A stretch of 64,000 nucleotides of DNA from Escherichia coli (GTDB lineage: Bacteria > Pseudomonadota > Gammaproteobacteria > Enterobacterales > Enterobacteriaceae). A model generated the notes under the pieces. It was not told where the DNA came from. It made no database searches and worked only from the letters and a program-made list of their open reading frames with translations. Both the position numbers and the translations under genes were made by a program. Shown here piece by piece: positions 2,386 through 52,528 of the stretch (positions are counted from its first letter, which is position 1; every line of letters starts with the position of its first letter). The DNA lies in assembly GCF_011045215.1 (NCBI RefSeq), contig NZ_CP049201.1; one strand, written 5' to 3'.

Positions 2386-4365
2386 ATGTTTAGGTTGAAC
2401 CCTTTCGTACGGGTCGGGCTGTGTTTGTCCGCTATTTCTTGTGCATGGCCTGTGTTAGCGGTCGATGATGATGGCGAAACGATGGTTGTCACTGCATCTT
2501 CCGTTGAACAAAACCTTAAAGATGCACCCGCCAGTATCAGCGTCATTACCCAGGAAGACCTGCAGCGAAAACCGGTACAGAATCTGAAGGATGTCCTCAA
2601 AGAAGTGCCTGGCGTACAACTGACGAACGAAGGGGATAACCGTAAGGGCGTTAGTATTCGTGGTCTGGACAGCAGCTACACCCTGATTCTTGTCGACGGT
2701 AAACGCGTTAACTCCCGCAATGCCGTCTTCCGCCACAATGATTTCGATCTGAACTGGATCCCGGTCGATTCCATCGAACGTATTGAAGTGGTCCGTGGCC
2801 CGATGTCGTCGCTGTACGGTTCCGATGCGCTCGGCGGTGTAGTGAATATCATCACCAAAAAAATCGGTCAGAAATGGTCGGGTACCGTTACCGTCGATAC
2901 CACCATTCAGGAACATCGCGATCGCGGTGATACCTATAACGGTCAGTTCTTTACCAGTGGACCATTAATTGATGGTGTGCTGGGAATGAAAGCCTACGGC
3001 AGCCTGGCAAAACGTGAAAAGGATGACCCGCAAAACTCAACGACCACCGATACCGGAGAAACGCCGCGTATTGAAGGATTCTCCAGCCGCGACGGCAATG
3101 TCGAATTTGCCTGGACACCGAATCAAAATCACGATTTTACTGCCGGATACGGTTTCGACCGTCAGGATCGTGATTCCGACTCGCTGGACAAAAACCGCCT
3201 GGAACGCCAGAACTACTCCGTCAGCCATAATGGGCGTTGGGATTACGGCACCAGCGAACTGAAATACTACGGTGAGAAAGTCGAGAACAAAAACCCTGGC
3301 AACAGCAGCCCGATAACTTCCGAAAGCAATACGGTCGACGGCAAATACACGTTGCCGCTGACGGCGATTAATCAGTTTCTCACGGTTGGCGGTGAATGGC
3401 GTCACGACAAACTTAGCGATGCGGTGAACCTGACCGGGGGAACCAGCTCCAAAACGTCTGCCAGCCAGTACGCGCTGTTTGTGGAAGATGAATGGCGGAT
3501 CTTCGAGCCGCTGGCGCTGACGACCGGCGTGCGTATGGACGATCACGAAACCTACGGTGAACACTGGAGTCCGCGTGCCTACCTGGTTTATAACGCCACC
3601 GACACCGTAACGGTGAAAGGGGGCTGGGCGACGGCATTTAAAGCACCTTCTCTGTTGCAACTTAGCCCTGACTGGACGAGCAATTCCTGCCGTGGCGCAT
3701 GTAAGATTGTGGGTAGCCCGGATCTGAAACCAGAAACCAGCGAAAGTTGGGAGCTGGGGCTTTACTACATGGGTGAAGAAGGCTGGCTGGAAGGGGTTGA
3801 ATCCAGCGTTACCGTTTTCCGTAACGATGTGAAAGATCGTATCAGCATCAGCCGTACGTCTGACGTCAATGCTGCACCAGGCTACCAAAACTTTGTCGGT
3901 TTTACAGCGAACGGTGTGCCGGTATTTAGCTACTACAACGTTAACAAAGCACGTATTCAGGGCGTGGAAACCGAGCTGAAAATTCCGTTCAACGATGAAT
4001 GGAAACTGTCACTCAACTACACCTACAACGATGGTCGTGATGTCAGCAACGGCGAAAACAAACCGCTATCCGATCTGCCGTTCCATACCGCTAACGGTAC
4101 GCTGGACTGGAAACCGCTGGCGCTGGAAGACTGGTCATTCTATGTTTCTGGTCACTATACCGGGCAGAAACGAGCCGACAGCGCGACGGCTAAAACACCG
4201 GGCGGTTATACCATCTGGAATACCGGCGCGGCCTGGCAGGTGACTAAAGACGTCAAACTGCGCGCAGGCGTGCTGAACCTTGGCGACAAGGATCTCAGTC
4301 GTGACGACTACAGCTATAACGAAGACGGACGTCGTTACTTTATGGCAGTGGATTATCGCTTCTGA
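2386..4365 (+). CDS. cirA: TonB-dependent outer-membrane receptor for catecholate siderophores / colicin I receptor
   Basis: 659 aa ORF with N-terminal signal peptide, TonB-box-like ETMVVTAS, and C-terminal ...[10 protein letters not shown] ending in an aromatic residue typical of OM beta-barrels. Confidence 0.9.
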
Positions 4366-12452: not shown

Positions 12453-12870
12453 TGGTTTTGTAGGCCGGATAAGGCGTTCACGCCGCATCCGGCGACAGGA
12501 GCCAAATGCCGGATGCAACGCTGGCGCGTTTTATCCGGCCTACAATGAGCTCAACATACTGATTTGTATGGTTTTGTAGGCCGGATAAGGCGTTCACGCC
12601 GCATCCGGCGACAGGAGCCAAATGCCGGATGCAACGCTGGCGCGTTTTATCCGGCCTACAATGAGCTCAACATACTGATTTGTATGGTTTTGTAGGCCGG
12701 ATAAGGCGTTCAAGCCGCATCCGGCGACAGGAGCCAAATGCCGGATGCAACGCTGGCGCGTTTTATCCGGCCTACAATGAGCTCAACATACTGATTTGTA
12801 TGGTTTTGTAGGCCGGATAAGGCGTTCAAGCCGCATCCGGCGACAGGAACCAAATGCCGGATGCGTCTCT
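12453..12870. repeat. Tandem BIME/REP array, about 3.6 copies of a 116-bp unit
   Basis: Unit beginning tggttttgtaggccggataaggcgttca(c/a)gccgcatccggcgacagga... recurs at 12453, 12569, 12685 and 12801 with near-perfect identity; each unit holds two inverted REP palindromes. Confidence 0.85.
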
Positions 12871-14116: not shown

Positions 14117-15342
14117 GCTCCCTCTAAATAGTGATGAATCGCCTCGGCGGCTTCTTTCCCGGTTTTCACGGCATAGACCACGGTTTTGTCACCCTCAACA
14201 ATATCGCCAGCAGCAAAGACTTGCGGATCGCGGGTCTGATAATTTTGTGTTTTGATGGTGTTACGCTGCGGCTCTAACTCCGCAAAGGCATCCAGTCTGG
14301 CATGCTGACCGACGGCGAGAATAATTTTATCTGCCACCATCGTCAGTTCGCCCGATAACCGTACATGCTTAAATGTGACTTTATTGCCTTCCACGGCTAC
14401 TGGCGTGAATCCATCGATGATCGAAACGCCCAGCTCCCGGGCGCTGGCAAACTCTTTTTCGCTTGCCGGAAACTCATCTAACTCTTCACGCGCTACGCAA
14501 GTTACCGCCTGACAGCCGAGAACTTTCAGCGTGCTGGCTACGTCCATCGCGACATCACCGCCGCCGATAATTAATGCGCTTTGTGGAATGCTGATATCGC
14601 CTTGCGCCTGTCGTGCACGTAGCAGGAAGTCGACGGCAATCTCAACGTCGCTATGCTCAAACAGCGGTAGCCCGGAACCGCTTGATAACCCCACGGTGAC
14701 CAGTACCGCGCGGTTTTCCGCTTTCAGTTGCTCCAGGGTGAGTGTTTTACCGATTTCGTTATTGCACTTAATGGTCACGCCCATTTTTTCAATACGGGCG
14801 ATCTCTGCATCCAGCACTGATTGCGGTAACCGGAATTGCGGAATACCGTTACGCAACCAGCCACCGGGGTGCGCTTCTTTCTCATAAATCGTGACGTCAT
14901 AACCCTGGTTTGTCAGTGTCACACTGGCCTGCAACCCGGCAGGACCTGCGCCAATAATCGCGACTTTGCCGAGCGTTTTAGTACCGGGCTGATAAATTTC
15001 CATCCCGGTTTGTTGTTCAAAATCAGTAACAAAACGCTGTAAGCGGCCGATATCAATGGGAGCATCAACCCCGGCACGGGTACAACCGCTTTGGCATAAT
15101 TTCTCCGTCGGGCACACTCTGGCACAAACGGCACCGAGGGCATTATTTTCGCGAATTGTCTCGGCAGCGCCTTTAAAATTACGAAAGTAGATTGAGCGAA
15201 TAAATTTCCCCGGATCGGTCTGTGCCGGGCAAGCCTGACTACAGGGAGCGTCGTGACATAATAAACAGCGAGAGGCTTCTTTAATCGCCAGTAAAGGCGT
15301 AAGAGCCGGAGTGAGTTCATCCAGATAATTTTGTTGCGGCAT
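14104..15342 (-). CDS. preT: Dihydropyrimidine dehydrogenase subunit PreT (FAD/NAD(P)-binding oxidoreductase)
   Basis: 412 aa ORF with Rossmann motif IIGAGPAG and an N-terminal Cys-rich region. Confidence 0.85.
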
Positions 15343-24350: not shown

Positions 24351-24523
24351 AAAGTTCTTTGACGTTGCATTGCTGGCGTAAATGTCAGCAATGCAGCATT
24401 TCCTCACGATTCTCCTTTGACGATCGCACTTTTTGCTCGTTATGATGGCGTCGCTAGCCTCAGTAAATCCTTACTCCGGCGGTGCGCAACCCGTGCGCGT
24501 GAACCACTATCTGAATGCTCATC

Positions 24524-38336: not shown

Positions 38337-40340
38337 TCATCCTTGTTGCTGAAGCATGGGGAATAATTGTTCGCACAGCAAAACACCGTTATTCATTGCT
38401 TCTACCCGTGCCTCGCTTTCTGTATTACGAAATTGTCCCAACACATGTGCCAGCCGATAAAAACCCACCGCGGTGAGGTCATTCGCCAGCAACTCTGCCT
38501 GACCAATAGCACTCTGTTCCTGATAGCGCCAGCCGTTATGGAGCAGTTGAATAAGTAATGCCTGGCAGCGCATCAGCAACTGATGAGCAGTAGACGGCAC
38601 AGGCAGAACGCTGGCAGAAGGTAGTGATGCCACCACAGGCGCAGTTTCTGCGTCCAGCGCCCAGGCACGAGTCTTTGTCATCATTACCTGTGGTTCCAGT
38701 GTCAATTGCCCATCAACAAAACTGACAAAGCCAGAAACCAGACACACGGGGTCGTCTGTTTGTTGCAAAAGCGCCGCCATGCGTTCAACGGCATAAGGCG
38801 CGCTGGCTGAGGCTGGCAGTGATAACGTCAGCAGATTATCTTCACCTTCGCCGCTGATTACCTGCGCATCCAGCGTTTGGCGGCTGCTATCCCAACCGAG
38901 TGAAATACACTCAGCGACCGGCAGAATAAATAAGTTATCGACCTGATTAAGAGGCCGTATGCAGGCGGGGGGACGCTGGCGTAAATATTCCCGCAAAGCC
39001 ACAATGCCCGGCTGGCGCAACGGCGCGCTCAACATTTGCCAGGCATCTGGCGACAGTGGAACAACACTACTCAAGCGGTTACGGGTCGCGAACAGCAGTT
39101 CGCCTTCGGCACTGCGACGCGCTGCTTGTGAAACAATTTGTCCACCTGCCAGTGCGCCAGCCTGAAAACTAAACAGCCGACGTTTTGCCGCGGGAGCGTT
39201 TTCTTGTTCGCTTCTCGGCCAACTACGCGAAAGATGCAAAATACTGCCGGTGTCGGGATCGGTAAACCAGATGCGTAAACCATAATGCTTAATATCCTGC
39301 CAGCAACGCATACCTAAAGACACCAGCCGCAGATGATCAAGCTTTGCTTCTCCGGCAATGCCAGAGCCAACGCCCGTGCGCCACGGCACAGGAGGAACTT
39401 CACCAACACTGTCGCGCCGGGCCATCTCTTGTGCGCAATTTAATCGACTGTTTAATGCCGCAAGCTGACGTAAGCATTCTCCGGCATGATAGTGGCTGGC
39501 GCGAGTGTGGAAGGCATCAACGCTTGCCCGTAGCTGTCGTAGTGATTCACTCACCCATCGCCAGTTGCAGCGTTCCGCCGCCTGCTGTGCGCGGCTGAAA
39601 GCGGCCTCGTAATGGATTGGCGGCTGGCTGATGCCGCCCAGCCATAATGCCTGACTTAATTGCTGAACATATTGACGACATGTTTTGCCTTCTTCGCTGG
39701 CAAACGGATCGTCAGATGATGTGACGTGTTCGCTGCGCATCTGCCAGATTAAATGAGTAAATTCCGCTTGCTGAGTTTTGGCCTCGACGAAGGCCTGCAC
39801 AGCCAGTACGACATGTTCGCAAAGTGTGCCTTCAATACAATCACAGCGGGCGAAGCGAATGCTGCTGCGGGAATAAAAACGCACATCACTCATCGGTAAG
39901 CGGGCTGAGGGAATTTTGCCAGGCGCACAGAACAACTCAATGGTGATGCCTTTAGCGACCAGCGCCTGTGCGCGTTTGCGGGTGGCATCGGGAAGGGTAG
40001 CCAGTTCTTCCAGCCAGATTGCCGGATCCCATTCCTCTTCTTTTCCCGTAGGCTGGGCGGTAGCACAAAGTCGTTGATAACTTAACACCAGCATCACGCG
40101 ATGACGGCACATGCCGCTGGCCCCGCAGCTGCACTGAGCCTCTTTCAGTGCCTGGCCGTTCGCCAGCTGGGTACGGACACCGTCACTGAAGGTGGCGATT
40201 AAAGCGCCGTTCTCATGGCTGATCTCCGGGACGTTGCCATTTTCCAGTTCCTTAAGACTGCGCTTAACAAAACCGGCATTGCTTAACGCTGTCAGGGCCT
40301 GCGGTGTCAGTTCTAATAATTCCGGACGTAGTGAATTCAT
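38337..40340 (-). CDS. yehQ: SWIM zinc-finger protein, last gene of the yehLMPQ module
   Basis: Two CxC-x(n)-CxH SWIM-type motifs (CSCGASGMCRHRV and CDCIEGTLCEHVV) near the N-terminus. The start is uncertain: ATG 40340 makes an ATGA overlap with the yehP stop, ATG 40364 is the alternative. Confidence 0.7.
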   Translation of the reverse strand: MNSLRPELLELTPQALTALSNAGFVKRSLKELENGNVPEISHENGALIATFSDGVRTQLANGQALKEAQCSCGASGMCRHRVMLVLSYQRLCATAQPTGKEEEWDPAIWLEELATLPDATRKRAQALVAKGITIELFCAPGKIPSARLPMSDVRFYSRSSIRFARCDCIEGTLCEHVVLAVQAFVEAKTQQAEFTHLIWQMRSEHVTSSDDPFASEEGKTCRQYVQQLSQALWLGGISQPPIHYEAAFSRAQQAAERCNWRWVSESLRQLRASVDAFHTRASHYHAGECLRQLAALNSRLNCAQEMARRDSVGEVPPVPWRTGVGSGIAGEAKLDHLRLVSLGMRCWQDIKHYGLRIWFTDPDTGSILHLSRSWPRSEQENAPAAKRRLFSFQAGALAGGQIVSQAARRSAEGELLFATRNRLSSVVPLSPDAWQMLSAPLRQPGIVALREYLRQRPPACIRPLNQVDNLFILPVAECISLGWDSSRQTLDAQVISGEGEDNLLTLSLPASASAPYAVERMAALLQQTDDPVCLVSGFVSFVDGQLTLEPQVMMTKTRAWALDAETAPVVASLPSASVLPVPSTAHQLLMRCQALLIQLLHNGWRYQEQSAIGQAELLANDLTAVGFYRLAHVLGQFRNTESEARVEAMNNGVLLCEQLFPMLQQQG

Positions 40341-41473
40341 GACTGAAGATTCTCCGCAAGCCATGATGCCAGCTCGCCCGGTGTCATGGCGGCTATTTGT
40401 GCGCCGACATTTACCAGCGCCTGGGCCGTATCGTGGTCATAGCAAGGCGTTGCTGTGCTATCGAGCGCTGCCAGTCCCAGCACTTTGATGCCGCTCTGGA
40501 CACACTTTTTCACCTGATGCGTCAGTAATGATGATGAACCCCCTTCGTAAAAATCGCTCACGAGGATAATGACGCTTTTCGCTGGTTGTTCAATAAGTTG
40601 CCGACCATATTCCACGGCACTGGCGATATTGGTTCCGCCGCCTAATTGCACTTTCATTAATAACTCTACCGGATCGGCAACGTCTGCCGTGAGATCAACC
40701 ACGCTGGTGTCAAACGCCACCAGATGGGTACGAATGCCGGGTAACTGCCATAAACAGGCCGCCATCACCGCAGAGTGGATCACCGAATCGACCATCGAGC
40801 CGCTTTGATCAACCAGTAAGACCAGTTGCCATTGTTCGCTTTGGCGTTTAATGCGGCTGTTAAAGCGGGGGGATTCGATATACAACTTGCCGTGTTGCGG
40901 GTGCCAGTGTTGCAGGTTGGCGCGCAGAGTACTTTTGAAATCAAAGTTTCGCGCCAGTGGAATAAATGAGCGGCGACGGCGATCGCGGACACCAGAAAAA
41001 GCCTGACGAACTTCCTTTGCCAGTCGAGCCATAATTTCTTCAACAACCTGGCGCACTATCCGGCGGGCGGCAGCCAGTACTTCGGGATTCATCAGATGTT
41101 TGGTGTGCAAAACGGCGCGTAGCAGGCTTTCAGAAGGCTGCATACGTTCCAGCACGTCGAGATTCGTCACCACATCTTCAATGCCATAGCGCAGTACGGC
41201 ATCGCTTTCCAGCCGCTCAATCACCTGTTGCGGAAACAGCGTGTGAATACTGTTGATCCACTCAGGGGTGGTGAGATTTGAGCCACCTAATCCACCGGAG
41301 CGTTCACCACGCTGGAGCCGTTCAGGATCGCGCCCATACAGCCACTCCAGCGCGTGGTCTACCTGCCGGGCATTGTCATCCAGCCCACAAAGGGTCGTTT
41401 CTGCCGCTTCGCCAAGAATTAATCGCCAGCGTTGTAGCTCACGGGTAGTCAGAAGATCGTTCAGTTCAGACAT
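40337..41473 (-). CDS. yehP: von Willebrand factor A (VWA) domain protein
   Basis: MIDAS-type motif LVLLVDQSGSM...T...D and a VWA-like fold signature; internal start MSELNDLL gives 378 aa and an 8-nt overlap with the yehM stop. Confidence 0.7.
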   Translation of the reverse strand: MSELNDLLTTRELQRWRLILGEAAETTLCGLDDNARQVDHALEWLYGRDPERLQRGERSGGLGGSNLTTPEWINSIHTLFPQQVIERLESDAVLRYGIEDVVTNLDVLERMQPSESLLRAVLHTKHLMNPEVLAAARRIVRQVVEEIMARLAKEVRQAFSGVRDRRRRSFIPLARNFDFKSTLRANLQHWHPQHGKLYIESPRFNSRIKRQSEQWQLVLLVDQSGSMVDSVIHSAVMAACLWQLPGIRTHLVAFDTSVVDLTADVADPVELLMKVQLGGGTNIASAVEYGRQLIEQPAKSVIILVSDFYEGGSSSLLTHQVKKCVQSGIKVLGLAALDSTATPCYDHDTAQALVNVGAQIAAMTPGELASWLAENLQS

Positions 41474-43745
41474 GGAAAACTCCCCAGTGTTGCAGCGATG
41501 CCAGTGCCTGCTGTTCGAGTTGTTGATGATGTGCAATGGCTTGCGGAGGATAATGCAACGGCATTTGCAGCGCTGAAACAGGAAGCTGCGCAAGCTGGTA
41601 ATGCTCAAGCACCTGATGCGCCAGTGTCCCGCGTTCTCGTGGCGGTAGCCAGGCCATCGCCGCGCGCAAATCGGGCAAGGCGTTAATAAAATCGTCGTCA
41701 CTCAGTTGATTTAAATGACTACTGAAACCGGCGATAAATGCTGGTTGGCAGGCCAATTGATGACGGGCGAGCGCCAGCAAACCGTGCAGCGCCTCGCCGG
41801 ATTGTGCCGGGGATAACTGCGCCAGCATCGTCAGCGCCGCTTCGGCACTGGCGTTGGGATGTTCCAGACGCATCAGTGCGCCAAGAGCCGCGCCGCGATC
41901 CAGCGCCGGGACATGAATCGCCTGACTGCGGCGCTCCAGTAAGGCTACCGCCGCAGAAAGAAAAACGCCGGGTAAATTAACGCCGCTATGTAGATCGCGC
42001 AGGATATGGCAAAGCGCCTGCCAGCTATGCATGTGAGCGTGAAACTCCTTTTCATCTGGTCTGCCGTTAGATTCACACAGCCACAGCGTGCGATCGATAG
42101 CCGCGCATAACGTCGTTTGTAATATCTGCGCGCCTTGCATACCGCTAATTTCATCCAGCCGCCATAAGGCATATAGCACTTCCAGCGCCTGGCCCATTTC
42201 GGCAAATTGATTTTCCTGGGCGATTAATAATGTGAGTTGCTCCAGTAATTGCTCACTAAAGCTCGCCAGGCCCGCTAACGCCGCCTGGCTTAGACATGCG
42301 GTAATGCTGCCGATTCCACCCGCGTCCAGCATATCGGCTTCTAATTTATTGCGTGCGGCTTCCTGGAGCGTGGCACCAAAGCAGGCGGCCTCAATTAATG
42401 CCGCATGCTGGCTAAGCGGCTGGGTTAATTTCCACTGTTCTTCACCGTTACCCGCAAGCGTCAGTGTACTTCCGTGCTGGCGCACAATGCCGGGAATCTC
42501 CAGTATTGCCAGCCGATGTAACACCTGACTTTGCGCTAGTCCATTGGGGTTAAAGCGATTTAAGGTAAGCTCCACCGGAAGAGAGATTGCGGTACGTTCC
42601 AGTTCGCAGGTGACATCTTTTGGCAGAGGCGGTTGTGGCGTAGAAGGGGCAAGTTTACCGAATCCGTCACCCGCTAATGTGTCTATCAACGTTAGCAGAA
42701 TCGGATCGGTGTCGGGATGAATAACTCCGCGATAGCTCCACGGCAACGGCGCGTTCAGGGCTTCTTTAATCAGCGAGCCTGCTATGGCATCCAGCCAGTC
42801 AGTGCGTAACGGTAGTTTATGTCCGCGCAACTGTGCCAGCGCCATCGCATGCAGATGAGCGGCAGCCATATCCGCGGTCGAAGCAGGCAAGTGGTGTTGG
42901 CGCAAACGGGTAAGAACCGTTTTTAGCAGTTGTTCTCCCGCCTGCTGTAAGCCCCACTGCCAGCACCAGCTTTGCCAGACCGGGGCAGGCATTCCTGAAA
43001 GGTATCCTGCCAGCACATCAAGGCGCTTTTCACTGTAGGGTGTGAGATAACAACCTGTAACGGCATCTGCCAGCGAGGGCAATTCTGGCTTGTTAATGTC
43101 CTGCGGGCATTCGCGCCACATTTTTGCCAGTGCCGGAGCGTGCCAGCCACCGCAGACGACTAACACGTCGCCATTATTTTGCTGCACCGCCCATGCAATC
43201 CAGCGAGCCATAAAGGCTTCGCGCTGACGATTGAGTGCATCGCCGGGGAAATCGCCCCGCAGTTGGGCAAAATAGTGCGCCAGTGCAGAGGGTAATGCAG
43301 TTTGCTGGCTTTCATCTTCGAACAAGTGATCCCACAGGGTATCGCTGTTATCCATGCGGGAGGCACGCAGCAGCAAGGTCTGGCTTTCCTCTTGCGTTTC
43401 AGGCGAATCGTCCTCTTCTTCACTCTGTGCCCAGCAAGGCAAATCGATGAAGTAAGTTTGTGCCTGAATACGACGAGCGGCTTGTAGCGCCTGCCACTCC
43501 GGCGAAAATTCAGCAAATGGCGTCCAGGCACCACGCCCGGGGGCTGCACCGTCCTGATACTGGCAATAACTGTAAATAGCTACCGGAAGCTGGTGGGCTA
43601 AAAACAGTTCGTCTACCCGGTCATTAAAATCAGCCGGGCCTTCAATCAACACGTATCGTGGCCGCTGGCTTTCGATTAACGATTTCACCAGCCGGGCGCA
43701 GGCCGGACTATGATGCCGGATGCCGACAATTAACGGCTCGCTCAT
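41466..43745 (-). CDS. yehM: Large (759 aa) protein of unknown function in the MoxR-VWA module
   Basis: Internal start MSEPLIVGIRHH... sits 10 nt after the yehL stop; no domain recognisable by eye. Confidence 0.7.
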   Translation of the reverse strand: MSEPLIVGIRHHSPACARLVKSLIESQRPRYVLIEGPADFNDRVDELFLAHQLPVAIYSYCQYQDGAAPGRGAWTPFAEFSPEWQALQAARRIQAQTYFIDLPCWAQSEEEDDSPETQEESQTLLLRASRMDNSDTLWDHLFEDESQQTALPSALAHYFAQLRGDFPGDALNRQREAFMARWIAWAVQQNNGDVLVVCGGWHAPALAKMWRECPQDINKPELPSLADAVTGCYLTPYSEKRLDVLAGYLSGMPAPVWQSWCWQWGLQQAGEQLLKTVLTRLRQHHLPASTADMAAAHLHAMALAQLRGHKLPLRTDWLDAIAGSLIKEALNAPLPWSYRGVIHPDTDPILLTLIDTLAGDGFGKLAPSTPQPPLPKDVTCELERTAISLPVELTLNRFNPNGLAQSQVLHRLAILEIPGIVRQHGSTLTLAGNGEEQWKLTQPLSQHAALIEAACFGATLQEAARNKLEADMLDAGGIGSITACLSQAALAGLASFSEQLLEQLTLLIAQENQFAEMGQALEVLYALWRLDEISGMQGAQILQTTLCAAIDRTLWLCESNGRPDEKEFHAHMHSWQALCHILRDLHSGVNLPGVFLSAAVALLERRSQAIHVPALDRGAALGALMRLEHPNASAEAALTMLAQLSPAQSGEALHGLLALARHQLACQPAFIAGFSSHLNQLSDDDFINALPDLRAAMAWLPPRERGTLAHQVLEHYQLAQLPVSALQMPLHYPPQAIAHHQQLEQQALASLQHWGVFHV

Positions 43746-43755
43746 GCATCTTTCC

Positions 43756-44844
43756 TCACGGCAGGCGGTGGCGGGCTTGATAATAAGCCTGCCAGTGAGC
43801 TTCTTTATGTGTGGCGACACGCTGTTCGAAGTAACGGCGCAGACGAGCGCGATCTTCTTCGTTATCTTTGACGATGGTTCCGGCAATACAGTCCACCAGG
43901 TCGGCAGGCTCCCCCGCGCGATTCGCTAAAAACCAGGCGCGGACGCCCACGGCGTGGGCCACGTTCACGGCTTCAGCGGTGGACATAATCGCTGTTAGTG
44001 TATCCATTGACGTTTTCTTTTCGCCGTTGGCACGCAGATCGCGGAAGGTGCGGACCAGTAACTCCAGTACCGCGTCAGGCACTTTATGCGGAATACCGCT
44101 ATGGGCCAGCAAACGCGCCGAAGCACTGGCGACAAGCTCCAGCTCTTGGGCGAAATCCATAATCGGAAAGACAGTTTCAAAATCGAAGCGACGCTTTAGC
44201 GCAGCACTCATTTCATTGACGCCGCGATCGCGGGTATTGGCAGTGGCAATAATATTAAAGCCTTCTCGCGCATAGAGCTGACTGGCTTCACCAGTGAGTT
44301 CCGGCACCGTCATCACCCTGTCAGAAAGCATACCTAACAGACAGTCTTGCACTTCCAGCGGTGTACGCGTTATCTCTTCAAAACGGACGATTTTGCCGTC
44401 GCGCATTCCCTGGTAAAGCGGGGCAGGGACCAGCGCTTCCGTTGATGGACCATGATTGATAAGCAGGGCGTAGTTCCAGCCGTACTTGATTTGATCTTCG
44501 GTAGTAGATGCGCCGCCCTGGATGGTTAACCCGGCATCGCCGCTAATAGAGGTTGCCAGTAATTCAGACAGGAGAGATTTTGCGGTGCCAGGTTCCCCCA
44601 CCAACATCAAACCGCGTCCGGTGGCAAGAGTGACTAACATACGTTCGACAGCGGAGGGACTAATCACCACTTTACGGCTAATATTTTGCGCGCTATCGCC
44701 AAGGATAAAAGCACGGGCCGCAGGCAAACTTAACTGCCAACCGGGCGGGCAAGGTGCGTTATCATTTTGTTTTAATTTTGCCAGTTCATCGGCGTATAAC
44801 ACAGCAGCAGGCGGACGCTGCAGATGATTATTCTGCGGTGACAT
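43756..44844 (-). CDS. yehL: MoxR-like AAA+ ATPase
   Basis: Walker A GEPGTAKS is encoded at 44575..44598 (read directly from the DNA); Walker B-like and sensor regions follow; internal start MSPQNNH... preceded by an SD gives 362 aa. Confidence 0.8.
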   Translation of the reverse strand: MSPQNNHLQRPPAAVLYADELAKLKQNDNAPCPPGWQLSLPAARAFILGDSAQNISRKVVISPSAVERMLVTLATGRGLMLVGEPGTAKSLLSELLATSISGDAGLTIQGGASTTEDQIKYGWNYALLINHGPSTEALVPAPLYQGMRDGKIVRFEEITRTPLEVQDCLLGMLSDRVMTVPELTGEASQLYAREGFNIIATANTRDRGVNEMSAALKRRFDFETVFPIMDFAQELELVASASARLLAHSGIPHKVPDAVLELLVRTFRDLRANGEKKTSMDTLTAIMSTAEAVNVAHAVGVRAWFLANRAGEPADLVDCIAGTIVKDNEEDRARLRRYFEQRVATHKEAHWQAYYQARHRLP

Positions 44845-44952
44845 ATATTCATCCCTGAAATGTATTAATGAAATAAACGATATTTTACGCGCAATAAATG
44901 TTTGGCGCATTAGTTGTTTGAGCGAAAAATATCTGGAAAGCAGATTACAGTA

Positions 44953-44990
44953 AATAAAAAAACCTGCTGGTGAGGCAGGTTCTTTTATTT
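44953..44990. terminator. Bidirectional rho-independent terminator in the yehK-yehL intergenic region
   Basis: 7-bp stem aacctgc/gcaggtt flanked by an A run upstream and a T run downstream, so it gives a U tract on either strand. Confidence 0.5.
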
Positions 44991-45276
44991 ACTATTTTCA
45001 GGCCTAACACCACAGCCTGTGCAACATCGTGTTCCAACGAACGAATTATAACCACGGCTGGACCCCGTTGCAATTAAGATAATGAGATTTATAATCCAGA
45101 CCGTTGGGACGTTGCGCCGGATCGAACCTATTTCAAGTCCTGGCTACCGGACGGGTGGTGCTGCAGGTGGTGCCCTGATCCGGAGTGCAACATCGTGGTC
45201 CAACATACGTAAACCAGTATCGACAGGCAGTGTAAGGGTAAGGTGCTGGTGTTGCGCTCCTTAATAAGGAGAGCGG

Positions 45277-45366
45277 ATGGACTCGCTGACACAAAAGTTA
45301 ACCGTGCTCATTGCTGTACTGGAGCTATTAGTAGCTCTGTTACGTTTGATTGATTTGTTGAAGTAA
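45277..45366 (+). CDS. Unannotated 29-codon hydrophobic/amphipathic peptide ORF (candidate small toxin-like membrane peptide)
   Basis: ATG preceded by SD aaggag (5 nt spacing); MDSLTQKLTVLIAVLELLVALLRLIDLLK; putative promoter ttgcaa-N16-tataat at 45068..45095; hairpin aaggggga-N7-tccccctt at 45389..45411. Confidence 0.35.
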   Translation: MDSLTQKLTVLIAVLELLVALLRLIDLLK

Positions 45367-45475
45367 CGGGCAAATTGAAACGCATCTAAGGGGGAAAACC
45401 GCTTCCCCCTTTAATAAAGCTATACTCGTCATACTTCAAGTTGCATGTGCTGCGACTTGAATTATCTAGAGTATA

Positions 45476-45793
45476 TTATTCTATTTCTTGGTTGAATATA
45501 TTCTGTAGTTCACGATTAAAAATTGCTATTACAGTTTCAGGTGATTCACCTCGTAATTTCCGCTCATCAATACACTCATCTCTTATATAAATCAACGCAT
45601 CATTTATTAGCGGGTCAGCATCTTCTCGATCACGTTGATGAAATGTTGGATGTAGCCGGAATCGCTCCAGTCGATAGACGGAACCTGTAAATAATTCAGA
45701 GCATTTATGGATCTCAAGTCTGAAGGAAAACGGATCTTCAGGTACAGGGACCTCATAATCGTAAATAGCAACCAGCTCTTTTTGCACGATCAT
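45476..45793 (-). CDS. yehK: Small acidic protein of unknown function
   Basis: 105 aa ORF 60 bp downstream of yehI on the same strand. Confidence 0.6.
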   Translation of the reverse strand: MIVQKELVAIYDYEVPVPEDPFSFRLEIHKCSELFTGSVYRLERFRLHPTFHQRDREDADPLINDALIYIRDECIDERKLRGESPETVIAIFNRELQNIFNQEIE

Positions 45794-45853
45794 CGCTTTC
45801 CCCGCTGGTAAGTCGTGTTGATAACGGGCAGTTGCATCACTGCCCGCTGTGTT

Positions 45854-48800
45854 TTAATGGAAAATGACGTCAGCTGCGCTTAACGCCTCACTCAAATCAA
45901 ACACATCGAGTTCGGCAAAAGTGACGGATTTATTGTTACGGTAAACCCGAAGAGAATGGAAGCTCATCAGCGCTTTGCTATCAGCACTGTAGTGGTTAAA
46001 ACCGGGTGAAAACTTAAGGACCAGCCGGTACTCACCCAGGTCATAGACAAATGCGTCCTCATAGCCTGACTCCCAGCCTTTGTATCGCATTCCCATAAGT
46101 TGCCCAACGGTAGCGGATTTACCTTCCCAGCGAGTCAGGCTGTTACTGGTTGACTCGTCAGGTGTGAGCAGCACCGTGCGGCGCGACAACTGGCGAAAAG
46201 GCGGCATAATTTCGTAATCGGCAAAAAGCTGTGCAAATTCACTGCGCATTTCTACTGTCATTTCTAACGGGTGGGCAATGCCAATCAGAGCGTCCGCAGG
46301 CAGGTCAATTGGCTCATCTTGCGCATTGCAGAACTCCCCCTCTGCGGCCACACGAAAGGCGTTGAGTAAACAACGCGGTTCATTTGCCGGATAAACCCCC
46401 CATATTAATCGCTGGGTAACCAGACGGGTAAAGGGATGATTAACAAACAGAGAATGAAAATCTGCCAGCGACCAGCGTCGGGTGGTACGTAGGGCCGTTT
46501 CAAGACGCGGGAGCAGGTTTTTGCTCACCTGAGTGGCATCTTTTTTTAGCCCTTTTAGTTGGGCCAGTGCCTCGGGCGCTTTCAGTTGATCGTCATCGGC
46601 GCGCAACCGGGGAACGCTTTTCTGGCGAACGTTTTGCTGATCAAAGATAATCGGGTTGAGGTTTTCATCGAAGCGAACGGTAAACTGCCGGGGACCAAAA
46701 TCAAAAATCAACGCCTGCGGATCATCAAGGCCAAGGGTTGGGACTAATCTGTCCGCTAGCTCTTCCTGGCTTAGCCCGCGATTTTCTGCGACCACCTGAA
46801 GAAATTCCGCCGCGTTATCACGTAAGGGGCGGGATTTAGCCCGTTGCGATATATGATGCAGCTGTATCAGCGCCATATCATTATTCATCAGGGTAAGGAT
46901 GTTCAGGCCGCTGACAGCACGGGCAGATTTGCCTTCTTGTGGCCAGGCGAGGATCTGTGTCGTCAGATCCCGTGCCGTGCTTTCGTCACCAAAGAGACTT
47001 AACGCCAGAAATGCCCAGTTGTCTTTTGCGGGGGCACCAGCTTGTTGCCACGCAGTGAAGAGATCCCAGGCAAAAGCTGCCAGCGTTTGTGGCTGGCAGA
47101 ACGTTTTCAGTTGTTCCAGCCCGCTATAAAAACGTCCCCCCTGGGTAAAGCGCAGCATTTCGCCGAAAATTTCCAGAGCGTCATCGGTAACAGTTTGATT
47201 ATTAGTGATAAGGCGCGGCCTGGACCACATTTGCGGATGCCAGAAATCAGGGGCTTTTGGAATGCGTGCCGGGTAAATCTCTATTGGACTCTGTTTAAGT
47301 AATTGTTCCAGGGCAGGCCATAGATCTGTACGCTGCCAACGATTGGCTAAAGTTTGTAGCAATTCGCCATGCCCATGTTCGTAAAGTAAACGCAGGGCAA
47401 GTAATGCAGCTTCGCTTTTATCGCTGGATTTGGTGAAGACAAGAGGGATAAGTGCAGTAGCCGTATGTTCCGGCCAATGTAAAATCCACTGGCGAGCCAG
47501 ATTACGCTGGCCCGCAAAACGGTGCCAGACGCGGGCAATGGGCAGGGCCAGTTCTGTTGCGCCGAAATTTAAAATTAACGGAAATGTTTCTTTTGGACGA
47601 TGTGAAAAAGCCAACAGCAGACCTGGTAGCGCATCCAATCCGAGGATACTGAGAAAATAGTCCTCACCCGCGAACAGATGCTTTTTCTCATTGATACGCA
47701 GCCAGAAGGTCAAAGCTATCTCACGCGGCAACTGTGCCAATAAATACAGGTTCCAGACACTCTTTTCCGGACGATAACGTGAGTAGTTGTCATTTTCCCA
47801 TATGTTAATTAACGCTTCTACGTGACCACTGCGAAGCGCCTGTTCTGCTAATGGTGCTTCCGGGGAGTTCCAGCCATTCAGGATCTCTTCAACCCGCCCC
47901 TGGTAGTAATGCCACTCAACAATGAGTGAATTGCGTGCAGCATCCAGTTTTCCGGGGAGTATATAATTCAAAAACAGCCATACATCATCCCCAAAACCCA
48001 GTTCCTGTAATACAACTCGCCCACTTTTTTGTTCCATGCGTTCCGCAAGAGATTCCGTGCTGAAATAACGGGCAGGCTCAGTGGCGGCAAGCCTCTCTCG
48101 TTCGCCTGGTTGCCAGTAAACTTGCGGAGTTAATTCGAGCCGTGCCAAATCAAGACGTGGAGCTGTCATTTTTTTCTTACTACGCCACGGTGGTGAAACG
48201 AGGATTTCAGGCAGATTGCTGTTATCGGTGCCATCAATAACCGGTTTTGGCAGTGCCGATAAATAACTCTTCAGCACTGCCCTGGCTTGAGTACTTAACC
48301 ACGGCATCACTTCTGCTGCCAGTTGTGGCTGCGATGCCATCAGCGTTTGTAACAGCGTACGCCAGTATTCATCGCGTGCTTTTTGCTGTGCAGGCAGCTT
48401 TTTGTCTTCGATGATTGGATAACCAGGGCGGGCTGGTGGTTCTGTTAACGCCAGCAGTTCTGCCAGTGCGGCGAGCGTCGCATGGGGGAAGTTTTTATGG
48501 TATTTAGCTACACGTTGCAGGCTGGGTTTGTTTTTATCAGCCACCAGTAGCAAGGTGCGGATGACTTGCGGATGGTTAATTTGTACCAGCAGACTGCCGC
48601 AATCTTCTTTATAGGCATACATCGCGAGGCGCGGAATGGCTGCCAGTCCTTGTTCGCGCAAAAGGGCGGCGCAGGCCGCGTAGCCGAAGTGGTTTTCATG
48701 CGACATGTAGCTGGCTTCTCGATCGCTAAATATATCCTGGCTCCAGTAGTGTTCGAGTTTTCTCACCGCTGTGGGGTCATTAGCTACAACTTTTAACCAC

Positions 48801-49495: not shown

Positions 49496-52400
49496 TTATT
49501 CAAACAGGGCTTCAATATCGTTAATTAGCTCGCTGGCGGTGATGGCATCGAGTACGGAGAACAGCGCTTCCTGTGTTGAATTACTCCCCCAGCCATAGCT
49601 TTCCGCTTTGCCTTCCCATAGCCACAGCTTGCTTAAGAGCTGCTCAGCGCTAAGTTCGGCTGGTGACATACCCACTGCAAAGCCTTCATCGATTTCCATG
49701 ATTAACGACCAGCGGCCCAGAGGTTTGATCATCCAGCCGATCCAGCCTCCATCCTGTGGTTCGCCCTTTATCCAGCCTTTATTCGCCAGCCCCATTACCC
49801 GACCGCTCGGGCATTTTCTGCCTGCCCAGCGGGTCAGTTCGCTGGCGTTGCGCTCGGCTTCTGTCAGGGCGTAACTGTTACGGTCAAGCTGGCGGAACGG
49901 TGGTAACAGTTCGTAGTCGGCAAAAAGCTGACCAAAGGCGGCAGCATCCGTCGGTGATATTTCCAGAACGTGAGGAATACCAATAGAGATATCGCCTTCC
50001 GGCAGGGTGAAAAGATCATCGTCAGCGGTGCTGTAGCTGTTATCTTCCGCTACGCGAAAGCAAGCCTGCAGCTGGTTTTCGGCGCTATAAACGCCCCAAA
50101 TCAGACGGCGGGTTAAGTGGCGAACCAGCGGATGCTCAACCAGGAAGAGCTGAAAGTTTTCCGGTGACCAGCGGCGACGCAGGCACATGGCGGATTCCAG
50201 CCTTGCTACCTGCTGGGCGGCGACGGTACGCGCATCTTTTTTCAGCAGTTTGTAGCGGTTAACAGCATCGTTCGCCTGTGATTCATCATCGCTTTTGTTT
50301 GGTTTGGGCAGGTCTTTCAGACGGCTGCCAGAAACATCACGCACAAACGGTTTTAAGGTTTCATCAAAGCTGACGGTGAACTGGCGTGAGCCGAAATCCA
50401 GCAGCAACGAACCGTTATCATCCAGACCGAGATCCGGTGCTAACCGATCTTCAAGCTCTGCCACCGTGAGTTCGCGGCTTTCGGCAATGTCGGCAATTTT
50501 TTCTTTTGCCCGCTCCTGTAATGCTTTGAATTTCAGTTTCTGGGCAATACCGTTAAGCTGCATCAGGGCGATATCACTACCGATAGCGGCGAGAATATCC
50601 AACCCAACGGTGGCGCGTTTATGCTGGGATTCACCAGGCCAGGCGCGTATTAATGGCGTCAGTTTGCGGGCGGTGTCATCGTTACCAAGAACGCCTAACG
50701 CAGTGAACGCCCAACTCTCTTTCGACGGTGCGCCCGCAGTCAGCCAGGCGGTAAACAGATCCCAGGCAAATTCAGCCAGTGAGTCGGCGGTACAGGCATC
50801 TTTCACCTGCAATAATCCCGGATACAGGGCCTCTTCCTGAGGGAAGCGGAGCATTTCACCGAGGTGCTGGAGTGCGCTATCTGGCAGTACCTTGCTGCTA
50901 TTTTTGAGTTTCGGGCGAGTCCATAATGGAGGTTGATAAAACAACGGTAAAGGGGGGATTTTCGCCGGGTATTTACCCACAGGACTGTTGTCGTTATTTT
51001 TATTTTGAGTTTCCCAGGGCGGCGAGACTAGTACCATTGGTAGAATTTCTGAGTTTGCAAAATCTTCATTGCGACTATTCAGCAATTGCTGACATTGTTG
51101 CAATAAATTTACCGCTTGCGACGATAATCCGATGACTAATTTTTCGACCAATAAAGGATTTGCATTAAGTAATGAAACCAGCAACGTATGTTTGCGTTTA
51201 TCATCTTTTTTTACCAATGCTTCGGCTAATGCCGCTATCGTGGCAGAAGGAAAATTTTCGGCACTTTTTATTAGTCGTTCATAACAGCGTTTATTAGTAT
51301 CGGCGGCTTCGATGAGTGCCGTAATGGCCAACGGATGATTAATACATTTCAGTACGTCACCGCAATTATCTTCTTCAGCATAGGGAGCCAGGCGAGCCAG
51401 TGCCGCTATACCTTGCTCCCGTAATACCGTAGCTGACCAACTGGCACCATAGGTGTTAAATACATCAATGTATTGATAGTTCTCCAGTATTTCGAGCGTG
51501 AATGGATCTGTCGCTACCAGTTTCAACATTTCAAGTTGTGGAACATCTGCGACCTGGTGTAAACGATGTACGATCTCATGGGCCACTTCGGGTATTTCTG
51601 GCATTAAAATGGCAATTAACGGTTGGCGATAGAGTGATATATCTGGTAACGCAACGAGTAATTTTGCAATGCAATTTTGCCATACTTCTTCTTCTGCTAG
51701 TGATAAATGTTTACGCAGACGTAAACTAAATTTGTCGTTATTCCTTCTATAACTGTCCTTGCTGCTATCTGCATAATTAATAAAGAAAGTCAAATGTTCA
51801 TCTTTATAGTCAAAATCGAAATCAATTTGCCACCAGAAGATGACAGTTTCAGTTGCGTATTCGATACCGAAGGTGCTTACAATTTCATCCAGCAACTCGG
51901 ATGAGGTTTCATCATTCCAGCCCTGACAAAAACATATTTCCAGAAAAGTAAGTACCGCCATAGTACGCGCGGGTATCTTAGTCTTTTGGGCCTTAATTAA
52001 GCTGATTGCCTGGCTAATCGCATCAGCCCATTCATCAGAGCATGAGCTGTAATCGAAAGTCAGATTTTTATAATAATGATAAGTACGATTTGCCAATCGG
52101 GAAATTAAATTTTGTTTCTCGGGTTTGGTTGGTTTTTTTACTGGCTCTCCCGGCCAAAGGCGGTGGCTGAGGGCATGGCGGGCAATATTCGGGGGAAGAA
52201 TAATGGGATCGTTGTCTGCCAGCCAGGGTAAACCATTAGTTGCTGCCTGGCGATTTATTGAGGCTTTTTCCTCTGTGACCAGGACTTTCTTTGCTGAGGC
52301 ATCATGTGAGTGAGCGTTAGCGTCTACTTGCTCCACATACCCCTTCTTCACCTTCTCCGCAATCAGCTTCAGTGCTGCTTTTTCCGCCGCCGCAGTATCT

Positions 52401-52528
52401 GCAAAGCTTTTTACCTGACTTTGCCCGTTGGTACCGACTTTACCCCAGTTAATATGCAGCTCGTTTCCCTGCTGCTCCACCGCCCAGAATTTATGTGATT
52501 TTTCGTCCTGATAAATATAGGTTTTCAT
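49496..52528 (-). CDS. WGR-domain / DUF4132 protein, middle MolR-family paralog
   Basis: 1010 aa; N-terminal 65 aa nearly identical to the upstream paralog; C-terminal half ~70% identical to it; central part AT-rich and divergent. Confidence 0.75.
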   Translation of the reverse strand: MKTYIYQDEKSHKFWAVEQQGNELHINWGKVGTNGQSQVKSFADTAAAEKAALKLIAEKVKKGYVEQVDANAHSHDASAKKVLVTEEKASINRQAATNGLPWLADNDPIILPPNIARHALSHRLWPGEPVKKPTKPEKQNLISRLANRTYHYYKNLTFDYSSCSDEWADAISQAISLIKAQKTKIPARTMAVLTFLEICFCQGWNDETSSELLDEIVSTFGIEYATETVIFWWQIDFDFDYKDEHLTFFINYADSSKDSYRRNNDKFSLRLRKHLSLAEEEVWQNCIAKLLVALPDISLYRQPLIAILMPEIPEVAHEIVHRLHQVADVPQLEMLKLVATDPFTLEILENYQYIDVFNTYGASWSATVLREQGIAALARLAPYAEEDNCGDVLKCINHPLAITALIEAADTNKRCYERLIKSAENFPSATIAALAEALVKKDDKRKHTLLVSLLNANPLLVEKLVIGLSSQAVNLLQQCQQLLNSRNEDFANSEILPMVLVSPPWETQNKNNDNSPVGKYPAKIPPLPLFYQPPLWTRPKLKNSSKVLPDSALQHLGEMLRFPQEEALYPGLLQVKDACTADSLAEFAWDLFTAWLTAGAPSKESWAFTALGVLGNDDTARKLTPLIRAWPGESQHKRATVGLDILAAIGSDIALMQLNGIAQKLKFKALQERAKEKIADIAESRELTVAELEDRLAPDLGLDDNGSLLLDFGSRQFTVSFDETLKPFVRDVSGSRLKDLPKPNKSDDESQANDAVNRYKLLKKDARTVAAQQVARLESAMCLRRRWSPENFQLFLVEHPLVRHLTRRLIWGVYSAENQLQACFRVAEDNSYSTADDDLFTLPEGDISIGIPHVLEISPTDAAAFGQLFADYELLPPFRQLDRNSYALTEAERNASELTRWAGRKCPSGRVMGLANKGWIKGEPQDGGWIGWMIKPLGRWSLIMEIDEGFAVGMSPAELSAEQLLSKLWLWEGKAESYGWGSNSTQEALFSVLDAITASELINDIEALFE

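What the first reader, a model, noticed from the sequence alone, without database searches (positions are those of the whole stretch)
44953..44990. Bidirectional terminator marks yehLMPQ as a transcription unit separate from molR-yehI-yehK
A strong hairpin with A and T runs on both sides sits 110 bp upstream of the yehL start codon. Readthrough from yehI-yehK into yehL should therefore be blocked, and yehLMPQ must have its own promoter in the short interval 44845..44952. This fixes the operon boundaries of the candidate system.
Basis: inference. Interest (0 to 1): 0.35.

Follow-up and report, generated by a model that had tools for sequence, protein, structure and literature searches.

The report
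Terminator of the OrzP antitoxin RNA
The hairpin is real, but it is the already-described transcription terminator of OrzP, a small antitoxin RNA belonging to the zor-orz toxin-antitoxin module that sits between yehK and yehL in nearly all E. coli, so the finding is ordinary.

Summary
The hairpin at 44961..44981 with flanking A and T runs is real and far stronger than chance (minus strand -26.3 kcal/mol, z = -10.5). It is not a free-standing operon boundary. It is the 3' stem-loop and U-tract of the OrzO-P antitoxin sRNA (Rfam RF02083, 44956..45031 minus strand, 99.9 bits against a gathering score of 60).

- divergent TTGCAA/TATAAT promoters;
- a predicted 84-85-nt Orz RNA;
- a 174-nt zor leader that pairs 18/19 with the Orz 5' end;
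- the 29-aa ZorP ORF (45277..45366) and its own terminator.

An identical Orz sequence in MG1655 gives a published Term-seq 3' end 111 nt upstream of yehL, which corresponds to window 44955. It also gives a northern band that disappears in a deletion mutant.

The hairpin is invariant in all eight orz copies aligned, including copies that are not next to yehL. An orz sequence occurs in 5228 of 5426 complete E. coli genomes.

Insulation of yehL from upstream transcription is a plausible by-product. A yehL promoter inside 44845..44952 is unproven: the best sigma-70 match is 8/12. Read-through from the orz promoter is not excluded.

Verdict: already known, low interest.

The parts
44961..44981 (-). 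Terminator stem-loop of the Orz sRNA: AACCUGC-CUCACCA-GCAGGUU, extended by A/U pairing to 44948..44995. This is the hairpin of the finding.
   Evidence: z = -10.5. It forms the second helix of the Rfam OrzO-P model. It is invariant in 8 orz copies.
44952..44960 (-). U-tract after the stem (the UUUUUUUAUUU run begins within the stem extension). The mapped RNA 3' end corresponds to 44955.
   Evidence: Sequence. MG1655 Term-seq 3' end at 2204485 (+), 111 nt upstream of yehL, on identical sequence (PMC7815308 supplementary files 1 and 3).
44955..45039 (-). orzP-type antitoxin sRNA gene, predicted 84-85 nt. The 5' end is inferred from the -10 box and the published length of about 85 nt.
   Evidence: Rfam RF02083 at 44956..45031, 99.9 bits, E = 1e-16. 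Identical to the MG1655 and O157-like P copies. Transcripts of about 85 nt reported in PMC2887945. OrzPmg northern in PMC11264685.
45045..45073 (-). orz promoter, TTGCAA-17-TATAAT.
   Evidence: 10/12. Same hexamers as reported for more than 99% of loci in PMC11264685 Table 3.
45068..45095 (+). zor promoter, TTGCAA-16-TATAAT, sharing its -35 region with the orz promoter.
   Evidence: 10/12. PMC11264685 Table 3.
45103..45276 (+). Predicted 174-nt zor 5' UTR. The Orz pairing site is at 45185..45203.
   Evidence: A start at 45103 gives the published 174-nt UTR (PMC5397157 abstract). Pairing is 18 of 19 with Orz 45037..45019, 74-92 nt upstream of the ATG, against the published 72-92 nt.
45277..45366 (+). 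zorP-type toxin ORF, 29 aa: MDSLTQKLTVLIAVLELLVALLRLIDLLK.
   Evidence: The window DNA is identical through the first 81 nt of this ORF (one synonymous difference after that) to the yehL-proximal unit of the O157-like locus, whose ORF translates to this peptide (L003 2578..2667). T3S relative to ZorO defines ZorP (PMC11264685).
45388..45411 (+). zor terminator hairpin (GGGGGAA...UUCCCCC followed by UUUAAU), lying between the convergent zor and yehK genes.
   Evidence: -14.6 to -15.3 kcal/mol. Its position fits the published zorO transcripts of about 280-310 nt.
44845..44952 (-). yehL upstream interval, 31% G+C. Promoter or leader status unresolved.
   Evidence: No sigma-70 match of 9/12 or better; best 8/12. 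Highly conserved across Escherichia.
43756..44844 (-). yehL (MoxR-type AAA ATPase), first gene of yehLMPQ.
   Evidence: RefSeq annotation of near-identical loci.
45476..45793 (-). yehK, last gene upstream of the spacer.

Best explanation
The hairpin is the Rho-independent terminator of OrzP, the antitoxin sRNA of a single zorP/orzP type I toxin-antitoxin unit inserted between yehK and yehL.

Shown here:
- RNA polymerase has a promoter-like site for orz at 45073..45045 (TTGCAA-17-TATAAT).
- The hairpin and U-tract that follow are the 3' helix of the Rfam OrzO-P model.
- The Orz 5' end can pair 18/19 with the zor leader at 45185..45203.

Inferred from the promoter position and published transcript length: transcription starts near 45038/45039 on the minus strand and gives an RNA of about 85 nt.

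Taken from the literature on identical sequence: the RNA ends within the U-tract at about 44955.

Taken from the literature on the zorO/orzO paralogue: pairing leads to RNase III-dependent, Hfq-independent repression of the 29-aa membrane toxin.

Inferred: because the terminator lies on the same strand as the yeh genes, it also stops most transcription arriving from yehK or from the orz promoter before it reaches yehL. This insulation is a side effect, not the reason the hairpin exists.
For: - Rfam RF02083 full-length match at 44956..45031 (-), 99.9 bits against a gathering score of 60. The finding's hairpin is its 3' helix.
- Divergent 10/12 promoters with the published hexamers.
- Pairing of 18/19, 74-92 nt upstream of the zor ATG, matching the published 72-92 nt.
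- The ZorP ORF.
- The family was described precisely 'between yehI and yehL', with sRNAs of about 85 nt that have predicted promoters and terminators (PMC2887945).
- OrzO antitoxin activity has been shown (PMC3919570).
- The MG1655 copy is identical in sequence. It gives a Term-seq 3' end at 2204485, which corresponds to window 44955, and a northern band lost in the deletion mutant.
- The hairpin and both flanking tracts are invariant in 8 copies of both O and P types, from E. coli to E. whittamii. The sRNA body varies between the types, and the sequence further downstream is unrelated in copies that are not next to yehL.
- An Orz gene was found next to yehL in all 10 loci examined.
- An orz sequence is present in 5228 of 5426 complete genomes.
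Against: - No expression data exist for this particular strain. The Orz 5' end is inferred from promoter position and published length, not mapped here.
- Term-seq read counts at the K-12 site are modest, about 1000.
- Repression by pairing was demonstrated for zorO/orzO, not directly for the P pair.
- RefSeq annotates neither gene.
Confidence: 0.93

Rival explanations
1. One reading: a dedicated bidirectional terminator whose role is to end the molR-yehI-yehK operon and set off yehLMPQ, which then starts from its own promoter in 44845..44952.
For: - The hairpin is on the yeh-coding strand, is strong, and is the best intrinsic terminator between yehK and yehL. The zor terminator read on the minus strand has a poor U-tract (UUAGAUGCGUUUC).
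- In orz-only strains such as MG1655, no other terminator was identified in the spacer aligned here.
- The interval downstream of the hairpin is highly conserved across Escherichia, as a promoter or leader would be.
Against: - The hairpin is the 3' helix of a known sRNA that has its own promoter 85 nt upstream.
- It recurs unchanged at the end of the yehK-proximal orz copy, where zor, not yehL, follows.
- No gene converges on it from the plus-strand side.
- Both 3' ends found near it in the Term-seq tables are on the yeh-coding strand.
- No sigma-70 match of 9/12 or better lies in 44845..44952.
Confidence: 0.05
2. Leader or attenuator reading: the orz promoter together with a leaky Orz terminator is the main source of yehLMPQ transcription. 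Orz would then double as the terminated 5' leader of yehL, and no separate yehL promoter would exist.
For: - Orz and yehL are co-directional and only about 110 nt apart in all 10 loci examined.
- The orz promoter is strong (10/12), while the interval before yehL has only 8/12 matches.
- Adams et al. list the 3' end among ends upstream of an ORF (-111, yehL).
- About a third of genomes keep orz, with promoter hexamers 99-100% conserved, although the toxin is gone. Toxin control cannot explain that.
Against: - A 7-bp stem extended by A/U pairing, followed by seven U, predicts efficient termination.
- No read-through data were obtained.
- Weak or activator-dependent promoters commonly score 8/12 or less, so the absence of a consensus match is weak evidence.
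- In Fozo 2010, Orz levels fall in stationary phase. Nothing is known here about yehL expression that could be compared with this.
Confidence: 0.1
3. Chance palindrome, or a copy of a dispersed repeat such as REP or ERIC.
For: The region is AT-rich, and a dispersed palindromic repeat does lie nearby at 45416..45476.
Against: - No shuffle out of 200 folds as well.
- Only 1-3 copies per genome, tracking the orz copy number.
- Full-length covariance-model match.
- A 3' end is mapped there in vivo.
Confidence: 0.01

Closest known systems
OrzO/OrzP antitoxin sRNAs of the zorO-orzO / zorP-orzP type I toxin-antitoxin loci (Rfam RF02083; Fozo et al. 2010, Wen et al. 2014, Shore et al. 2024)
   Same: Same chromosomal site (yehK/yehI-yehL spacer), promoter hexamers, RNA sequence (identical to the O157-like P copy and to MG1655 OrzPmg), terminator, pairing site in the zor leader, and 29-aa ZorP toxin.
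   Different: Nothing of substance. This window carries a single P-type unit rather than the tandem O+P pair of O157:H7 or the orz-only remnant of K-12. One base differs at 44946, 9 nt past the RNA 3' end.
IstR-1/tisB and OhsC/shoB (divergently encoded type I antitoxin sRNAs of E. coli)
   Same: The sRNA is transcribed divergently from the toxin gene, is short, ends in an intrinsic terminator, and uses its 5' end to pair with about 18-20 nt of a long toxin 5' UTR (stated in PMC2887945 and PMC3919570).
   Different: Unrelated sequences and toxins, at different chromosomal sites. No Rfam match to those families was found here.
Bidirectional intrinsic terminators between convergent genes (general class; recalled from the SEnd-seq literature, not read here)
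   Same: Symmetric hairpin with an A-tract on one side and a T-tract on the other, so both strands can fold into hairpin plus U-run.
   Different: The hairpin is not between convergent genes. The flanking units (orz and yehL) are co-directional, the plus-strand U-tract is interrupted by C and A, and no plus-strand 3' end is documented. The hairpin at 45388..45411, between the convergent zor and yehK, fits that class better.

Membership tests
OrzO-P antitoxin sRNA (Rfam RF02083) | Covariance-model score at or above the curated gathering score, over the full model length. | tested here: met
   99.9 bits against 60, model positions 1-76 of 76, E = 1e-16.
OrzO-P antitoxin sRNA (Rfam RF02083) | Encoded divergently from a 29-aa zor toxin ORF in the yehI/yehK-yehL spacer, with TTGCAA/TATAAT promoters. 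| tested here: met
   ZorP ORF at 45277..45366. Promoters. Location, matching PMC2887945 and PMC11264685 Table 3.
OrzO-P antitoxin sRNA (Rfam RF02083) | [quoted passage not shown] | tested here: met
   18 pairs of 19 with one internal mismatch (13 of them continuous), 74-92 nt upstream of the ATG. Criterion taken from PMC11264685 and PMC3919570.
OrzO-P antitoxin sRNA (Rfam RF02083) | Expressed as an RNA of about 85 nt that represses zor toxicity. | not testable with these tools
   Published for identical or paralogous sequences only: northern in EDL933 and MG1655, and rescue assays for OrzO.
Intrinsic (Rho-independent) terminator | Stable GC-containing stem-loop immediately followed by a U-tract on the transcribed strand. 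| tested here: met
   Minus strand: 7-bp stem plus UUUUUUUAUUU, -26.3 kcal/mol with the A/U extension, z = -10.5.
Intrinsic (Rho-independent) terminator | An RNA 3' end within the U-tract in vivo. | not testable with these tools
   Not testable for this strain. For the identical MG1655 sequence, a Term-seq 3' end at 2204485 corresponds to window 44955.
Bidirectional terminator | Terminates converging transcripts on both strands, with 3' ends on both strands and transcription units facing it from both sides. | tested here: inconclusive
   The plus strand also folds (z = -6.3), but its U-tract is CUUUUAUUU. No plus-strand gene faces the hairpin. Both K-12 Term-seq ends found near it are on the yeh-coding strand.

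The most novel reading that the evidence does not exclude
The orz promoter plus a partly leaky Orz terminator act as the promoter-leader of yehLMPQ. Expression of this MoxR-ATPase/VWA gene set would then be coupled to antitoxin transcription. This coupling, or the insulation the terminator gives, would explain why about a third of E. coli genomes keep an intact, expressed orz after losing the zor toxin.
Probability: 0.1. Interest if true: 0.5.

Novelty: already known. Interest (0 to 1): 0.1.

Why it matters
For the first-stage 'candidate system', the useful correction is anatomical. molR-yehI-yehK and yehLMPQ are separated not by a bare terminator but by a complete, independently transcribed type I toxin-antitoxin unit, which RefSeq leaves unannotated. 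Any model of yeh operon structure, promoters or regulation has to take that unit into account.

The hairpin itself adds nothing new. Its RNA, its family model and its in vivo 3' end are all published.

The one open point with some value is whether Orz transcription or termination affects yehLMPQ expression. That bears on the published puzzle of why toxin-less orz genes are conserved.

Tried and rejected
- NCBIfam scan of the 29-aa ZorP peptide: no family. Identity therefore rests on the DNA alignment and peptide match to the O157-like copy and on the literature.
- Transcription-start data for yehL could not be obtained. Thomason 2015 is not held. The Cappable-seq GTF is stored truncated at about 12% of its length and cannot reach 2.2 Mb. 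Conway 2014 has no supplements held.
- A word-start search for 'yehL' returned only unrelated papers. A whole-word search gave only an in vitro sigma-S run-off entry for the antisense strand of the yehI-yehL spacer. That entry may reflect the retained zor promoter in K-12 and says nothing about yehL.
- A genome-contig scan with YehK, meant to find relatives without zor-orz and so the ancestral spacer, returned only three Escherichia loci, all with orz. The ancestral state could not be seen.
- Rejected: dispersed repeat (copy number 1-3). Rejected: the Thr/Trp leader Rfam matches (26 and 22 bits, far below their gathering scores), which only recognise the generic terminator shape. Rejected: the plus-strand OrzO-P match (26 bits), which is the palindromic echo of the terminator.

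Full report
**Observation**

The plus strand at 44953..44990 reads AAATAAAAAAACCTGCTGGTGAGGCAGGTTCTTTTATTT. Folded as RNA in a 54-nt context, both strands form strong hairpins, and no shuffle out of 200 does as well on either strand:

| Strand | Energy (kcal/mol) | z-score | Shuffle mean |
|---|---|---|---|
| Minus | -26.3 (21-pair extended hairpin) | -10.5 | -5.6 +/- 2.0 |
| Plus | -22.2 | -6.3 | -7.1 +/- 2.4 |

The core is a 7-8-bp stem at 44961..44981. On the minus strand it is followed by UUUUUUUAUUU, and on the plus strand by CUUUUAUUU.

**What the hairpin belongs to**

A scan of 43500..46500 against Rfam gives a full-length match to RF02083, the OrzO-P antitoxin RNA family, at 44956..45031 on the minus strand. 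The score is 99.9 bits against a gathering score of 60, E = 1e-16. The second helix of the model is exactly the hairpin of the finding (repeated on the whole window). The weaker Thr-leader, Trp-leader and plus-strand OrzO-P matches at the same place are far below threshold. They only recognise the generic or palindromic terminator shape.

**Anatomy of the spacer**

The 631 bp between the yehK stop (45476) and the yehL start (44844) hold a complete type I toxin-antitoxin unit.

- **Promoters.** The consensus scan finds two divergent, partly overlapping promoter-like sites. One is TTGCAA-17-TATAAT on the minus strand (45073..45045) and the other is TTGCAA-16-TATAAT on the plus strand (45068..45095), each 10/12. 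These are the same hexamers reported as conserved in more than 99% of zor/orz loci (PMC11264685 Table 3).
- **Orz RNA.** A minus-strand start near 45038/45039 with an end at 44955 gives an RNA of 84-85 nt. The published size is about 85 nt (PMC2887945).
- **zor leader.** A plus-strand start at 45103 gives the published 174-nt zor 5' UTR (PMC5397157).
- **Toxin ORF.** The ORF at 45277..45366 encodes MDSLTQKLTVLIAVLELLVALLRLIDLLK. The window DNA is identical through the first 81 nt of this ORF, with one synonymous difference after that, to the yehL-proximal unit of an O157-like genome, whose ORF gives this peptide. The T3S difference from ZorO defines ZorP.
- **Pairing.** Orz positions 45037..45019 pair with zor leader positions 45185..45203 at 18 of 19 positions, 13 of them continuous. 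The site is 74-92 nt upstream of the ATG. The published site is 72-92 nt upstream, and the pairing satisfies the published functional threshold of 17 pairs with one mismatch.
- **zor terminator.** A second hairpin at 45388..45411, followed by UUUAAU, lies at the expected 3' end of the zor mRNA of about 310 nt.
- **Repeat.** A short palindromic dispersed repeat lies between that hairpin and yehK, at 45416..45476.

**Comparative evidence**

| Locus | Spacer length | Content |
|---|---|---|
| MG1655 and K-12-like strains | 306 bp | Both promoters, an identical Orz gene and the terminator; 325 bp carrying most of the zor leader, the toxin ORF and its terminator are missing |
| O157-like strain | 1240 bp | Two tandem units: ZorO next to yehK, ZorP next to yehL |
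| Escherichia sp. E1V33, MOD1-EC7003 and E. whittamii (YehK 78-92% identical) | not measured | One or two units each |

In an alignment of eight orz copies, the segment AAATAAAAGAACCTGCCTCACCAGCAGGTTTTTTTATTT is invariant. The sRNA body differs between the O and P types. Beyond about 35 nt past the hairpin, the sequence is unrelated in the copies that are not followed by yehL. The hairpin therefore travels with the orz gene, not with the yeh operon boundary.

Even the two weakest megablast matches examined still contain a full Orz gene next to yehL. That makes 10 of 10 loci examined.

Across the 5426 complete E. coli genomes:
- An orz sequence is present in 5228, at 1-3 copies per genome.
- The zor leader plus ORF is present in 3397.
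- About a third are therefore orz-only, in line with the published figure of more than 30%.

RefSeq annotates neither gene in any record examined.

**Published experimental evidence on identical sequence**

- Fozo et al. 2010 described this repeat family 'between yehI and yehL'. They found the sRNAs from free-energy minima with predicted promoters and terminators, and detected transcripts of about 85 nt.
- Wen et al. 2014 showed that OrzO rescues ZorO toxicity through its 5' end. The effect depends on RNase III and not on Hfq.
- Shore et al. 2024 showed by northern blot that the MG1655 orz-only copy, OrzPmg, is expressed and that the band is lost in a deletion mutant.
- Adams et al. 2021 list a Term-seq 3' end at MG1655 2204485 (+), classed as 'orphan', 111 nt upstream of yehL. 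The listed flanking sequence ends ...CAGCAGGTTTTTTTA. With the yehL start at 2204596, this corresponds to window 44955, the A after the seven U.
- A second 3' end at 2204446, corresponding to window 44994, appears in another growth condition. From their position in the supplementary file I infer that 2204446 is on the LB OD 0.4 sheet and 2204485 on the LB OD 2.0 sheet.
It shows termination at the hairpin on the yeh-coding strand. The RNA that ends there is Orz.

The conclusion that yehIK and yehLMPQ are separate transcription units is probably right. Transcription leaving yehK would have to cross a palindromic repeat, the zor terminator in reverse (poor U-tract on that strand), an antisense passage through zor against a strong opposing promoter, and finally the Orz terminator.

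The hairpin is nevertheless not 'the' operon boundary. The 'bidirectional' label rests on symmetry alone:
- no plus-strand gene faces the hairpin;
- the plus-strand U-tract is interrupted;
- both K-12 Term-seq ends found near it are on the yeh-coding strand.

The deduction that yehL must have a promoter in 44845..44952 is not secure either. That 108-bp interval (31% G+C) has no sigma-70 match of 9/12 or better. The best candidates are 8/12: TTTACT-17-TATTTT and GCGCCA-15-TAAAAT. A strong co-directional promoter, P-orz, lies just upstream, so terminator read-through is an untested alternative. I could not obtain any transcription-start data for yehL.

**Verdict**

The feature is real, functional and already described: the OrzP terminator within a zorP/orzP type I toxin-antitoxin unit. 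Novelty is 'already known' and interest is low.

The most novel reading not excluded is that P-orz plus a leaky terminator drives or gates yehLMPQ, which would give a reason for the conservation of toxin-less orz genes. I put this at about 10%.

Noticed in passing
window 45416..45476: A short palindromic element lies between the zor terminator and the yehK stop (-19.9 kcal/mol, z = -4.0). This stretch of the query matches several places per E. coli genome (median 5 places for the 901-bp query), so it is a dispersed repeat. From memory it resembles a short ERIC/IRU form; this was not tested. It also gives a sub-threshold isrH Rfam match (22 bits). The 325-bp K-12 deletion ends inside it.
   Followed up: partly
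window 49496..52528 (-): The molR/yehH reading frame is intact here (1010 aa), whereas MG1655 annotates yehH as a pseudogene.
   Followed up: no
window 44956..45031 and 45277..45366; loci L001-L004, L008, L009: RefSeq/PGAP annotates neither the Orz sRNA nor the 29-aa Zor toxin in any record examined, although the Rfam model scores 88-101 bits on each. BLAST rows report 'none' under the matches.
   Followed up: yes
L004 (MG1655) 14291..14596; equivalent to window 45068..45140: In orz-only K-12 the zor promoter is retained and now points into the antisense strand of yehK. An in vitro run-off microarray study lists an antisense signal for the yehI-yehL intergenic probe set (PMC3141248). This may be that orphan promoter.
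   Followed up: partly
window 12463..12772 (+) and 24439..24519 (+): Three tandem naRNA4 (RF02564) copies and one Peptidase-S11 RNA motif (RF03039) score above their gathering thresholds.
   Followed up: no
window 38337..40364 (-): The reading frame at the yehQ position runs to 38337. If it starts near 40340, it would be about 50 aa longer than the 614-aa YehQ annotated in MG1655. Not checked.
   Followed up: no
L005 (Escherichia sp. E1V33) 3335..3408: In this species the orz copy directly upstream of yehL is of the O type rather than the P type, yet the junction to the yehL leader is the same. This suggests unit loss or recombination between tandem copies.
   Followed up: partly
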